From Escherichia coli (GTDB lineage Bacteria > Pseudomonadota > Gammaproteobacteria > Enterobacterales > Enterobacteriaceae), in NCBI RefSeq assembly GCF_001677475.2, contig NZ_CP015229.1: a DNA stretch of 64,000 nt; one strand, written 5' to 3'. Both the position numbers and the translations under genes were made by a program. Shown here one piece after another: positions 41,416 through 43,857 of the stretch. Below the pieces are notes generated by a model. The model did no database searches. It was not told the DNA's origin and was given only the letters and a program-made list of their open reading frames with translations. The stretch's first letter is position 1. Each line of letters starts with the position of its first letter.

Positions 41416-43857
41416 ATGTCACAAGATCCTTTCCAGGAACGCGAAGCTGAAAAATACGCGAATCCCATCCCTAGTCGGGAATTTATCCTCGAACATTTAA
41501 CCAAACGTGAAAAACCGGCCAGCCGTGATGAGCTGGCGGTAGAACTGCACATTGAAGGCGAAGAGCAGCTTGAAGGCCTGCGTCGCCGCCTGCGCGCGAT
41601 GGAGCGCGATGGTCAACTGGTCTTCACTCGTCGTCAGTGCTATGCGCTGCCGGAACGCCTCGACCTGGTGAAAGGTACCGTTATTGGCCACCGTGATGGC
41701 TACGGCTTTCTGCGGGTTGAAGGGCGTAAAGATGATTTGTATCTCTCCAGCGAGCAGATGAAAACCTGCATTCATGGCGATCAGGTGCTGGCGCAGCCGC
41801 TGGGCGCTGACCGTAAAGGTCGTCGTGAAGCGCGTATCGTCCGCGTACTGGTGCCAAAAACCAGCCAGATTGTTGGTCGCTACTTTACCGAAGCGGGCGT
41901 CGGCTTTGTGGTTCCTGACGACAGTCGTTTGAGCTTCGATATCTTAATCCCGCCCGATCAGATCATGGGTGCGCGGATGGGCTTTGTGGTGGTGGTTGAA
42001 CTGACCCAACGCCCGACTCGCCGTACCAAAGCGGTGGGTAAAATCGTCGAAGTGCTGGGCGACAATATGGGCACCGGCATGGCGGTTGATATCGCTCTGC
42101 GTACCCATGAAATTCCGTATATCTGGCCGCAGGCTGTTGAGCAACAGGTTGCCGGGCTGAAAGAAGAAGTGCCGGAAGAAGCAAAAGCGGGCCGTGTCGA
42201 TCTGCGCGATTTACCGCTGGTCACCATTGATGGCGAAGACGCCCGTGACTTTGACGATGCAGTTTACTGCGAGAAAAAACGCGGCGGCGGCTGGCGTTTA
42301 TGGGTCGCGATTGCCGACGTCAGCTACTATGTGCGTCCGCCAACACCGCTGGACAGAGAAGCGCGTAACCGTGGTACGTCGGTGTACTTCCCTTCGCAGG
42401 TTATCCCGATGCTGCCGGAAGTGCTCTCTAACGGTCTGTGTTCGCTCAACCCGCAGGTAGACCGCCTGTGTATGGTGTGCGAGATGACGGTTTCGTCGAA
42501 AGGCCGCCTGACTGGCTACAAATTCTATGAAGCGGTAATGAGCTCTCACGCACGTCTGACCTACACCAAAGTCTGGCATATTCTGCAGGGCGATCAGGAT
42601 CTGCGCGAGCAGTACGCCCCGCTGGTTAAGCATCTCGAAGAGTTGCATAACCTCTATAAAGTGCTGGATAAAGCCCGTGAAGAACGCGGTGGGATCTCAT
42701 TTGAGAGCGAAGAAGCGAAGTTCATTTTCAACGCCGAACGCCGTATTGAACGTATCGAACAGACCCAGCGTAACGACGCACACAAATTAATTGAAGAGTG
42801 CATGATTCTGGCGAATATCTCGGCGGCGCGTTTCGTTGAGAAAGCCAAAGAACCGGCACTGTTCCGTATTCACGATAAGCCGAGCACCGAAGCGATTACC
42901 TCTTTCCGTTCAGTGCTGGCGGAGCTGGGGCTGGAACTGCCGGGCGGTAACAAGCCGGAACCGCGTGACTACGCGGAGCTGCTGGAGTCGGTTGCCGATC
43001 GTCCTGATGCAGAAATGCTGCAAACCATGCTGCTGCGCTCGATGAAACAGGCGATTTACGATCCGGAAAACCGTGGTCACTTCGGTCTGGCATTGCAGTC
43101 CTATGCGCACTTCACTTCGCCGATTCGTCGTTATCCTGACCTGACGCTGCACCGCGCCATTAAGTATCTGCTGGCGAAAGAGCAGGGGCATCAGGGCAAC
43201 ACCACTGAAACCGGCGGCTACCATTATTCGATGGAAGAGATGCTGCAACTGGGTCAGCACTGTTCGATGGCGGAACGTCGTGCCGACGAAGCAACGCGCG
43301 ATGTGGCTGACTGGCTGAAGTGTGACTTTATGCTCGACCAGGTAGGTAACGTCTTTAAAGGCGTAATTTCCAGCGTCACTGGCTTTGGATTCTTTGTCCG
43401 TCTGGACGACTTGTTCATTGATGGTCTGGTCCATGTCTCTTCGCTGGACAATGACTACTATCGCTTTGACCAGGTAGGGCAACGCCTGATGGGTGAATCC
43501 AGCGGCCAGACTTATCGCCTGGGCGATCGCGTGGAAGTTCGCGTCGAAGCGGTTAATATGGACGAGCGCAAAATCGACTTTAGCCTGATCTCCAGCGAAC
43601 GCGCACCGCGCAACGTCGGTAAAACGGCGCGCGAGAAAGCGAAAAAAGGCGATGCAGGCAAAAAAGGCGGCAAGCGTCGTCAGGTCGGTAAAAAGGTAAA
43701 CTTTGAGCCAGACAGTGCCTTCCGCGGCGAGAAAAAACCGAAGCCGAAAGCGGCGAAGAAAGACGCGAGAAAAGCGAAAAAGCCATCGGCTAAAACGCAG
43801 AAAATAGCCGCAGCGACCAAAGCGAAGCGTGCGGCGAAGAAAAAAGTGGCAGAGTGA
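41416..43857 (+). CDS. rnr: Ribonuclease R
   Basis: ORF 41374..43857; start trimmed to [23 protein letters not shown] (813 aa); RNB and S1 domains; Lys-rich C-terminal tail. Confidence 0.93.

What the first reader, a model, noticed from the sequence alone, without database searches (positions are those of the whole stretch)
43560..43857. Lysine-rich C-terminal tail of RNase R encoded by an A/G-rich low-complexity tract
The last roughly 90 codons of rnr encode a K/A/R-rich tail (…[25 protein letters not shown]…AKKKVAE). In the six-frame track this tract throws up several alternative ORFs, which should not be mistaken for genes or repeats. The tail is a known regulatory region of the enzyme.
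Basis: partly seen in the sequence, partly recalled or inferred. Interest (0 to 1): 0.15.

Follow-up and report, generated by a model that had tools for sequence, protein, structure and literature searches.

The report
Lysine-rich tail of RNase R
This stretch is the intact 3' end of the E. coli rnr gene, encoding the well-studied, disordered, lysine-rich tail of ribonuclease R; the extra ORFs it throws up are by-products of its T-poor sequence, so the finding is correct but ordinary.

Summary
The observation and the interpretation both hold. Window 41416-43857 (+) is an intact 813-codon rnr gene in the E. coli context purA-nsrR-rnr-rlmB-yjfI. It differs by one residue from RefSeq RNase R proteins and scores 1788 bits on the NCBIfam RNase R equivalog.

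Pfam places the S1 domain at residues 641-724. The remaining 88 codons (43591-43854) encode a tail with 28% Lys, 19% Ala, 9% Arg and net charge +25.

The DNA is 67% purine and 7.6% T. It has the lowest trinucleotide entropy in the 64 kb window. All stop codons and their reverse complements need a plus-strand T, so all six frames are unusually open.

The alternative ORFs match no family and are not annotated in RefSeq. Differences from five orthologous tails fall 35/42/121 on rnr codon positions 1/2/3. There is no tandem repeat and no frame disruption.

The literature documents the tail as needed for recruitment to tmRNA-rescued ribosomes, for tmRNA-SmpB-dependent proteolysis and for polyphosphate binding.

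Two refinements. The finding's start includes the last roughly 10 residues of S1. The tail is not uniformly low-complexity: within Enterobacterales it alternates conserved motifs ([42 protein letters not shown]) with an indel-rich spacer.

Already known; low interest.

The parts
41416..43857 (+). rnr coding sequence: 813 codons plus TGA, encoding ribonuclease R
   Evidence: Intact ORF. NCBIfam NF008648 at 1788 bits over residues 1-812. One residue different from WP_000076285.1 (V269L) and from WP_000076316.1 (P775T). RefSeq annotation of the syntenic loci agrees.
43336..43590 (+). S1 RNA-binding domain (residues 641-725); its last ~10 residues fall inside the finding's coordinates
   Evidence: Pfam PF00575 matches residues 641-724 at E=8.6e-19. 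The AlphaFold2 model runs the last strand over 719-728. PDB 5xgu covers residues 87-725 only.
43591..43854 (+). K-rich (K/R-rich, 'basic') C-terminal tail, residues 726-813
   Evidence: K 25, A 17, R 8 of 88 residues; T 7.6%. Purine fraction 67% for the finding region. Lowest 3-mer entropy in the window. pLDDT below 50 over residues 749-789. Function from PMC3949413, PMC12320835 and PMC12345225.
43591..43650 (+). Proximal conserved basic segment [20 protein letters not shown] (residues 726-745). It contains E740 and K741 (43633-43638); K749 and K750 follow at 43660-43665.
   Evidence: The SSxR..GKT pattern is present in 74 of 79 in-frame tails of 50 aa or more, including the most distant ones. 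E740, K741, K749 and K750 are all present here. These four residues are required for enrichment on tmRNA-rescued ribosomes (PMC3949413).
43672..43725 (+). Conserved motif [18 protein letters not shown] (residues 753-770), the only non-basic conserved island of the tail
   Evidence: The block [10 protein letters not shown] is at least 70% identical across 53 Enterobacterales tails (those rows were selected for carrying the motifs). Counted without that selection, FEPD/N occurs in 66 of 79 in-frame tails. It is absent from all 144 representatives at 50% clustering. Predicted disordered, pLDDT about 36-43.
43726..43770 (+). Hypervariable K/P/A spacer [15 protein letters not shown] (residues 771-785), including the P775 codon at 43738-43740 (T in E. 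coli strain HS)
   Evidence: Almost all indels of the alignment lie here. The P775T difference is at window position 43738.
43771..43854 (+). Conserved terminal segment [28 protein letters not shown] (residues 786-813), with a predicted basic helix over residues 792-812 (43789-43851)
   Evidence: Conserved blocks KAKKPS and [14 protein letters not shown]. DSSP helix 792-812 with pLDDT about 75.
43703..43807 (+). Spurious +1-frame ORF of 34 aa ([34 protein letters not shown])
   Evidence: Listed; no Pfam match. The same peptide appears in database fragments that appear to come from frameshifted rnr assemblies.
43580..43786 (-). Spurious antisense ORF of 68 aa
   Evidence: Listed; no Pfam match; not annotated in RefSeq.
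43680..44015 (-). Spurious antisense ORF of 111 aa that runs from the REP-containing spacer into the tail
   Evidence: Listed; no Pfam match. The number of stops in this antisense frame differs between orthologous tails (0 to 4).
43512..43673 (-). Spurious antisense ORF of 53 aa
   Evidence: Listed; no Pfam match.
43864..43884 (+). Stem-loop CCCTCTTC-AAACA-GAAGAGGG, starting 7 nt after the rnr stop codon and followed by no T-run
   Evidence: 8 bp stem; the first 45 nt after the stop fold at -15.1 kcal/mol and the same stem is in the MFE of the whole spacer. A stable hairpin of different sequence sits at the same position in three other loci.
43916..44010 (.). Pair of REP-like palindromes in the rnr-rlmB spacer
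   Evidence: Inverted repeats I1 and I2. Sub-threshold Rfam matches to naRNA4 and ES036. The query including this spacer matched a median of 39 places per E. coli genome. The spacer folds with z = -7.5.

Best explanation
**What it is.** Window 43591-43854 is the last 88 codons of an intact E. coli rnr gene. They encode the C-terminal K-rich (K/R-rich, 'basic') extension of the 3'-5' exoribonuclease RNase R.

**How the tail works (from the literature, not tested here).** It is a polycationic appendage after the S1 domain, disordered when free, with net charge +25.
- It adds non-specific affinity for RNA and other polyanions.
- Its proximal part (residues about 735-750, including E740, K741, K749 and K750) directs the enzyme to ribosomes rescued by tmRNA-SmpB, where it degrades non-stop mRNA.
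- Together with S1 it is the surface to which tmRNA-SmpB binds free, K544-acetylated enzyme. That binding recruits Lon and HslUV and makes RNase R unstable in exponential growth.
- It also binds polyphosphate.

**How the DNA features follow (shown here).** The tract is A/G-rich because Lys (AAA/AAG), Ala (GCN), Arg, Gly and Glu codons dominate it. T drops to 7.6%. Every stop codon (TAA, TAG, TGA) and every reverse complement of one (TTA, CTA, TCA) contains a plus-strand T. Stops are therefore depleted in all six frames, and mechanical ORF calling yields several overlapping ORFs that are not genes.

**Refinement (inferred).** Within Enterobacterales the tail is a mosaic. Three conserved motifs are separated by spacers, and the second spacer (residues 771-785) is indel-rich and lysine-rich. 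This points to short linear binding motifs embedded in a charge-only linker.
For: **Identity of the gene**
- NCBIfam RNase R equivalog at 1788 bits against a cut-off of 982.
- Pfam HTH_12, OB_RNB, CSD2, RNB and S1 in order.
- One amino-acid difference from each of two RefSeq RNase R proteins, and the purA-nsrR-rnr-rlmB-yjfI-yjfJ context.
- 5424 of 5426 E. coli genomes hold at least 80% of the 701-nt query 43400-44100.
- Catalytic-motif Asp residues D272, D278, D280 and D281, and K544, are present.

**Composition:**

**Disorder**
- Mean hydropathy 0.331 lies below the charge-hydropathy boundary of 0.515.
- pLDDT is below 50 for residues 749-789 while the core is above 90.
- The E. coli crystal construct 5xgu stops at residue 725.

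**A basic tail is a family trait**
- 105 of 144 RNase R cluster representatives have more than 10 residues after S1.
- 103 of those 105 tails are net positive, with median K+R of 36%.

**The rnr frame is the selected one**
- Differences from five orthologous tails fall 35/42/121 on codon positions 1/2/3.
- Lys codon usage (18 AAA: 7 AAG) is similar to the rest of the gene (26: 6).

**The ORFs are artefacts**
- The five non-coding frames of the tail hold 8 stops, against a mean of 16 (minimum 9) in equal segments of the rnr body.
- No Pfam match for any alternative ORF and no RefSeq feature there.

**Function:** PMC3949413, PMC12320835 and PMC12345225.
Against: - Nothing in the sequence contradicts the identification.
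- All functional statements are transferred from experiments on the K-12 enzyme. That enzyme differs from this one at residue 775 (T in K-12-like sequences, P here), which lies in the variable spacer.
[quoted passage not shown] It also notes that the classical 1-723 truncation clips the last S1 strand, so some phenotypes assigned to the tail may partly reflect S1 damage.
- The physiological role of polyphosphate binding is unclear: K-to-R mutants that lose binding behave like wild type (PMC12345225).
- Truncation from 813 to 750 had no effect on non-stop mRNA decay (PMC3949413). The function of the conserved distal motifs is therefore not explained by the best-documented role.
Confidence: 0.93

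Rival explanations
1. One of the overlapping ORFs (for example the 111-aa antisense ORF 43680-44015 or the 34-aa +1-frame ORF 43703-43807) is a real overlapping gene.
For: The ORFs exist. The in-phase antisense frame has no stop in any of the six tails compared. The +1 frame also encodes a strongly basic peptide.
Against: - The openness is fully predicted by T being 7.6% of the tract.
- No Pfam match for any of the ORFs and no RefSeq annotation.
- Substitutions follow the rnr frame, 35/42/121 by codon position.
- Stop counts in the other frames differ between orthologues, for example 1-3 in the +1 frame and 0-4 in each of the two out-of-phase antisense frames.
- No promoter-like site was found on either strand in 43300-44200.
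- The in-phase antisense frame is open simply because the tail has no TTA, CTA or TCA codon.
Confidence: 0.02
2. The tract is a slippage-prone element. Its six A5-A6 runs would cause frameshifts, either programmed or as phase variation, that give RNase R alternative C-termini.
For: - There are six A5-A6 runs.
- Depending on the threshold, 16 to 35 of the roughly 115-120 database fragments retrieved with the C-terminal query carry peptides from the +1 or +2 frame of this tract. Some come from megabase-scale NCBI contigs.
- The +1 frame remains basic, so a shifted product would keep its charge.
Against: - The window itself is in frame.
- Runs of 6 A are, to my knowledge (not checked here), shorter than those known to give efficient transcriptional slippage.
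- I inspected the runs by eye and found no A_AAA_AAG heptamer in the correct phase.
- The retrieved list is strongly biased toward fragments, because split genes yield short C-terminal proteins.
- The two source assemblies I opened for other reasons (L003, L004) show rnr split elsewhere as well, which suggests assembly errors.
- 5424 of 5426 complete E. coli genomes hold at least 80% of the 701-nt query 43400-44100.
Confidence: 0.03
3. The tract is a degenerate DNA repeat or a recently acquired low-complexity insertion, rather than a selected protein segment.
For: Lowest 3-mer entropy in the window. Short direct repeats of 12-19 nt. The central spacer is indel-rich.
Against: - TRF finds only two weak rows of two copies each, scoring 31 and 39.
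- Three motifs are positionally conserved across several Enterobacterales genera.
- Third-position excess of substitutions.
- A basic tail is present in most RNase R representatives.
Confidence: 0.02

Closest known systems
E. coli K-12 RNase R (Rnr/VacB) K-rich or 'basic' C-terminal domain, given as residues ~724-813 or 731-813 depending on the paper
   Same: Essentially the same molecule. It has 813 aa and the same domain order. E740, K741, K749, K750 and K544 are all present. The tail is identical except for one residue.
   Different: P775 here against T775 in K-12-like sequences (strain HS and fragment P0067). The P775 form also occurs in E. coli AR_0013.
RNase II (Rnb), the paralogous RNB-family exoribonuclease of E. 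coli
   Same: Shares the CSD-CSD-RNB-S1 core. The match to solved RNase II structures ends at query residue 720. The NCBIfam exoribonuclease II models match residues 80-720, below their cut-offs.
   Different: RNase II lacks both the N-terminal HTH and the C-terminal K-rich tail (PMC3949413, PMC12320835). Its stability is not affected by tmRNA-SmpB (PMC3949413).
RNase R of other bacteria (B. subtilis 8cdu, M. genitalium 7dic, and 144 cluster representatives)
   Same: A basic extension after S1 is common: 105 of 144 representatives have one, and 103 of those 105 are net positive.
   Different: Tail length ranges from 0 to 516 aa, and some tails are Arg-rich rather than Lys-rich (26 of 105). None of the Enterobacterales motifs (FEPD, KIAAAT) occurs in any representative. 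The K544-acetylation and tmRNA-SmpB proteolysis circuit has so far been described only in E. coli (PMC12320835).
Disordered lysine-rich regions of other E. coli translation and ribosome-biogenesis proteins (for example the YihI N-terminus)
   Same: A lysine-rich, disordered segment that binds polyphosphate (PMC12345225).
   Different: No sequence relationship was tested here; the resemblance is compositional only.

Membership tests
Ribonuclease R (RNB family; NCBIfam NF008648 / TIGR02063) | Full-length match to the curated RNase R equivalog model above its cut-off | tested here: met
   NF008648 at 1788.3 bits (cut-off 982) over residues 1-812. TIGR02063 at 962 bits (cut-off 598).
Ribonuclease R (RNB family; NCBIfam NF008648 / TIGR02063) | Catalytic RNB domain with the conserved Asp cluster | tested here: met
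   PF00773 matches residues 260-587 at E=5e-117. D272, D278, D280 and D281 lie in [11 protein letters not shown].
Ribonuclease R (RNB family; NCBIfam NF008648 / TIGR02063) | Two N-terminal cold-shock/OB domains and a C-terminal S1 domain flanking RNB | tested here: met
   OB_RNB at 87-144, CSD2 at 164-238, S1 at 641-724.
Ribonuclease R (RNB family; NCBIfam NF008648 / TIGR02063) | N-terminal winged-helix/HTH domain, which distinguishes RNase R from RNase II | tested here: met
   PF08461 HTH_12 matches residues 23-83 at E=1e-12.
Ribonuclease R (RNB family; NCBIfam NF008648 / TIGR02063) | Basic K/R-rich extension after S1, which distinguishes RNase R from RNase II | tested here: met
   88 residues with 37.5% K+R and net charge +25 by my count from the codon table. 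The same trait is seen in 103 of 105 representative tails longer than 10 aa.
Ribonuclease R (RNB family; NCBIfam NF008648 / TIGR02063) | 3'-5' exoribonuclease activity on structured RNA | not testable with these tools
   This needs an enzyme assay. It is inferred from near-identity to the characterised E. coli enzyme.
Functional K-rich domain as defined in E. coli K-12 | Residues E740, K741, K749 and K750, required for engagement of tmRNA-rescued ribosomes | tested here: met
   All four are present at those positions. The requirement is from PMC3949413.
Functional K-rich domain as defined in E. coli K-12 | K544 in the RNB domain, the acetylation site coupled to tail-dependent proteolysis | tested here: met
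   K544 is present in [12 protein letters not shown]. Its role is from PMC12320835.
Functional K-rich domain as defined in E. coli K-12 | Intrinsic disorder or flexibility of the tail in the free enzyme | tested here: met
   pLDDT below 50 over residues 749-789, and 54-75 elsewhere in the tail. The charge-hydropathy position is on the disordered side. This agrees with SAXS data (PMC3949413) and disorder predictors (PMC12345225). It is a prediction only.
Functional K-rich domain as defined in E. coli K-12 | Binding of tmRNA-SmpB, ribosomes and polyphosphate | not testable with these tools
   Biochemical property; from the literature only (PMC12320835, PMC12345225).
Independent protein-coding gene in an alternative frame | Frame-specific conservation, a family match, or annotation | tested here: not met
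   No Pfam match and no RefSeq feature. Substitutions are periodic in the rnr frame.
Tandem or micro-satellite DNA repeat | Head-to-tail copies of a unit | tested here: not met
   TRF gives only two weak rows of about two copies each, scoring 31 and 39.

The most novel reading that the evidence does not exclude
The two distal conserved elements of the tail could be specific, so far uncharacterised short linear binding motifs restricted to Enterobacterales. They are NFEPDSAFR (residues 762-770, window 43699-43725) and the predicted basic helix [21 protein letters not shown] (residues 792-812, window 43789-43851).

They might be the part of the tail that folds back onto the RNB domain near K544, or that contacts SmpB or a protease adaptor. 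The reasoning is that they are positionally conserved across several genera, while truncation from 813 to 750 leaves non-stop mRNA decay intact (PMC3949413). Their conservation would then reflect the stability-control circuit or another function rather than ribosome recruitment.

I found no paper in the searched library that names these motifs, but I did not search for them exhaustively.
Probability: 0.3. Interest if true: 0.3.

Novelty: already known. Interest (0 to 1): 0.08.

Why it matters
**For annotation.** It matters only as a caution. A T-poor, lysine-coding tract leaves all six frames open, so mechanical ORF lists, and apparently frameshift-prone assemblies, produce false small proteins and false basic C-termini here.

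**For biology.** The tail is already a textbook example of a disordered regulatory appendage. It links an exoribonuclease to trans-translation and to growth-phase-dependent proteolysis.

**What is modestly useful here.** The tail has a map: a conserved proximal segment, a conserved NFEPDSAFR island, a hypervariable spacer and a conserved terminal helix. That map could guide cleaner truncation or point-mutant designs than the classical 1-723, 1-735 and 1-750 constructs, the first of which clips the S1 domain.

Tried and rejected
- **Tandem and dispersed repeats.** Only codon-level 12-19 nt repeats were found, so I rejected a repeat element.
- **Rfam at a permissive E-value over 40700-45000.** There is nothing inside the tail. 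The only hits are sub-threshold REP-derived families in the spacer.
- **Promoter and terminator scan.** No promoter-like site was found. One weak antisense terminator-like hit at 43819-43805 lies inside the coding tract; I regard it as chance.
- **Pfam scan of five alternative ORFs.** It returned nothing except one chance-level hit (E=0.1).
- **Programmed frameshifting.** I considered it because of the A-runs and the many out-of-frame database fragments. I rejected it as unlikely: the runs are at most 6 nt, I saw no in-phase slippery heptamer, and the fragments come from a list biased toward broken genes.
- **Primary Liang & Deutscher papers (PMC3191462, PMC3460448, PMC2937936).** None is held in the library. 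Their content is cited only through the reviews.
- **My recollection about E764 and D766.** I recalled that these residues, inside NFEPDSAFR, were proposed as partners of K544. I could not verify this and do not use it as evidence.
- **The first motif alignment.** It selected rows by presence of the motifs and was therefore circular. redid the count without that selection.
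Full report
**Observation.** Reading 43300-44100 and listing ORFs shows one long plus-strand ORF ending with TGA at 43855-43857. The ORF listing extends the ORF upstream to a GTG at 41374. The start that RefSeq uses in syntenic E. coli loci corresponds to the ATG at 41416, which gives 813 codons. Neighbouring ORFs are purA, nsrR, rlmB, yjfI and yjfJ, the standard E. coli arrangement. A 701-nt query across the region (43400-44100) is at least 80% covered in 5424 of 5426 complete E. coli genomes, mostly at 95-99% identity. The protein differs by a single residue from WP_000076285.1 (V269L) and from WP_000076316.1 (P775T). There is no frame disruption.

**Domain structure and the true extent of the tail.**
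- Pfam finds HTH_12 (23-83), OB_RNB (87-144), CSD2 (164-238), RNB (260-587) and S1 (641-724).
- The NCBIfam RNase R equivalog NF008648 matches residues 1-812 at 1788 bits, against a cut-off of 982.
- The tail proper is therefore residues 726-813, window 43591-43854, which is 88 codons.
- The finding's start, 43560, is the third base of the Met715 codon. The finding thus includes the last ~10 residues of S1. The AlphaFold2 model extends the last S1 strand to residue 728.

**Composition.**
- From the codon table, the tail has 25 Lys, 17 Ala, 8 Arg and 8 Asp+Glu, so net charge +25. The 715-residue remainder used has net charge -15.
- The finding region is 67% purine, a value reached by only 0.05% of same-length windows.
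- The tail is 7.6% T.
- No other sampled part of the 64 kb window has 3-mer entropy as low as the tail.
- Amino-acid entropy is 3.23 bits, against at least 3.74 for any 88-residue window of the body.
- Lys codon choice (18 AAA: 7 AAG) resembles the rest of the gene (26: 6). The A-richness therefore follows from the amino-acid content and not from an extra nucleotide-level bias.

**Why the six-frame track fills with ORFs.** Every stop codon (TAA, TAG, TGA) and every reverse complement of one (TTA, CTA, TCA) contains a T on the plus strand. At 7.6% T, the five non-rnr frames of the tail hold 8 stops in total. Equal-length segments of the rnr body hold a mean of 16 and a minimum of 9. Only 0.2% of same-length windows have as few stop trinucleotides on both strands. 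This accounts for the ORFs at 43703-43807 (+), 43829-44038 (+), 43512-43673 (-), 43580-43786 (-), 43680-44015 (-) and 43790-43915 (-).

These ORFs are not genes:
- None of the five tested matches a Pfam family.
- RefSeq annotates nothing but rnr and rlmB there.
- No promoter-like site lies in 43300-44200.
- Differences between this tail and five orthologous tails (two E. coli strains, Klebsiella michiganensis, Cronobacter sakazakii and one unnamed NCBI assembly) fall 35/42/121 on rnr codon positions 1/2/3.
- Stop counts in the alternative frames vary between these orthologues.
- The in-phase antisense frame is open in all six tails simply because the tail uses no TTA, CTA or TCA codon.

The tract is not a repeat either. 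TRF gives only two rows of about two copies, scoring 31 and 39. The direct repeats found are 12-19 nt strings such as GCGGCGAAGAAA (AAKK). Rfam finds nothing in the tail.

**The tail across orthologues.** An exhaustive HMMER search of 50%-identity cluster representatives returned 150 RNase R-like proteins. I located the S1 end in 144 of them.
- 105 have more than 10 residues after S1.
- 103 of those 105 tails are net positive, with median K+R of 36% (the window's body has 13.5%).
- Lengths range from 0 to 516 residues.
- 73 tails are Lys-dominated and 26 Arg-dominated.
- At this depth there is no positional conservation: none carries the motifs described below.

A second search with the last 213 residues retrieved closer relatives, labelled where named as Escherichia, Salmonella, Klebsiella, Cronobacter, Serratia, Rahnella and Pantoea. 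Among them the tail is a mosaic:
- A proximal segment [19 protein letters not shown] (726-745). Its pattern is retained in 74 of 79 in-frame tails of 50 aa or more, including the most distant ones.
- A short G/K spacer.
- [18 protein letters not shown] (753-770). The FEPD/N core occurs in 66 of 79.
- A hypervariable K/P/A/E spacer (771-785). Almost all indels lie here, as does the P775/T775 polymorphism.
- A terminal [22 protein letters not shown] (786-809). It occurs in 53 of 79; most of the exceptions are truncated or, by my reading, frameshifted.

The first alignment was selected on the motifs and is therefore circular. The counts are the unbiased ones.

**Structure prediction.** AlphaFold2 on an alignment of 144 sequences gives mean pLDDT 91.
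- The core is above 90.
- Residues 749-789 are below 50.
- A short helix over 738-746 has pLDDT of about 58; it covers E740 and K741.
- A helix over 792-812 has pLDDT of about 75.

A charge-hydropathy calculation places the tail on the disordered side. The E. coli crystal construct 5xgu covers residues 87-725 only.

**What is known.**
[quoted passage not shown] E740/K741 and K749/K750 are the key residues. Truncation from 813 to 750 has no effect on non-stop mRNA decay. SAXS indicates a flexible tail close to the catalytic core.
- The 2025 review PMC12320835 summarises the regulatory role. S1 plus the K/R-rich extension bind tmRNA-SmpB. This binding is favoured by acetylation of K544 and recruits HslUV and Lon. 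Removal of S1 and/or the extension stabilises the enzyme. The extension contributes to duplex-RNA binding. No cryo-EM density for it is seen on 30S subunits.
- PMC12345225 maps polyphosphate binding to S1 plus the basic domain and predicts that domain to be disordered.
- All the residues named above (K544, E740, K741, K749, K750) are present in the window's protein.

**Mechanism, with status of each step.**
- Shown here: gene identity, intactness, composition, the T-depletion explanation of the ORFs, selection in the rnr frame, the generality of a basic tail, the motif mosaic, and predicted disorder plus a terminal helix.
- Taken from the literature: ribosome and tmRNA-SmpB engagement, control of proteolysis, polyphosphate and duplex-RNA binding.
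- Inferred: the conserved distal motifs are short linear binding elements set in a charge-only spacer.

**Verdict.** The feature is already known and ordinary. Interest is low. The only residue of novelty is the uncharacterised conservation of NFEPDSAFR and of the terminal helix within Enterobacterales.

Noticed in passing
window 43864-43884; L003 from 2005, L004 from 2395, L005 from 556: A stable stem-loop (CCCTCTTC-AAACA-GAAGAGGG; the first 45 nt after the stop fold at about -15 kcal/mol) starts 7 nt after the rnr stop codon and has no T-run. The three non-E. coli loci (Klebsiella, Cronobacter and an unnamed assembly) have a hairpin of unrelated sequence at about the same position. In L004 it is a canonical terminator with a T-run, and rlmB does not follow there. 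Possible roles are a 3'-end protection or processing site, or an attenuator before rlmB.
   Followed up: partly
window 43916-44010: Two REP-like palindromes (a BIME-type pair) fill the rnr-rlmB spacer. They give sub-threshold Rfam matches to the REP-derived naRNA4 and ES036, and the query including them matched a median of 39 places per E. coli genome. The whole spacer folds at z = -7.5. The Klebsiella and Cronobacter spacers are only 81-86 nt long, against 180 nt here, so they may lack the REPs.
   Followed up: partly
proteins P0165, P0173, P0184, P0186, P0190, P0195-P0198, P0201-P0203, P0219, P0223, P0247 and others: Many public 'proteins' retrieved with the RNase R C-terminus are chimeras of the rnr frame with the +1 or +2 frame of this tract, for example ...[26 protein letters not shown] or ...[36 protein letters not shown]. 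This points to frameshifts at the A5-A6 runs in assemblies, most likely homopolymer errors. The list is biased toward fragments, so no frequency can be derived from it.
   Followed up: partly
window 43738-43740 (codon 775): There is a P775/T775 polymorphism in the hypervariable spacer of the tail. The window and E. coli AR_0013 have Pro (CCG). Strain HS and the K-12-like fragment P0067 have Thr.
   Followed up: partly
window 41374-41415: The rnr reading frame is open for 14 codons upstream of the annotated ATG, back to a GTG at 41374 that overlaps the end of nsrR (40952-41377). RefSeq uses the ATG at the position equivalent to 41416. I did not test whether the upstream GTG is ever used.
   Followed up: no
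P0192: One database tail ends in ...KKKICLLYTSPSPRD. By my recollection this looks like a translated sequencing-adapter (transposase mosaic-end) sequence fused to the rnr 3' end, which would be a contaminated public assembly. I did not check this against an adapter sequence.
   Followed up: no
L003 (GCA_900451375.1) and L004 (GCA_039594245.1): In both assemblies rnr is called as two or three separate ORFs split within the CSD and RNB regions. In L003, rlmB is split as well. This suggests generally frameshift-rich assemblies rather than real pseudogenes.
   Followed up: no
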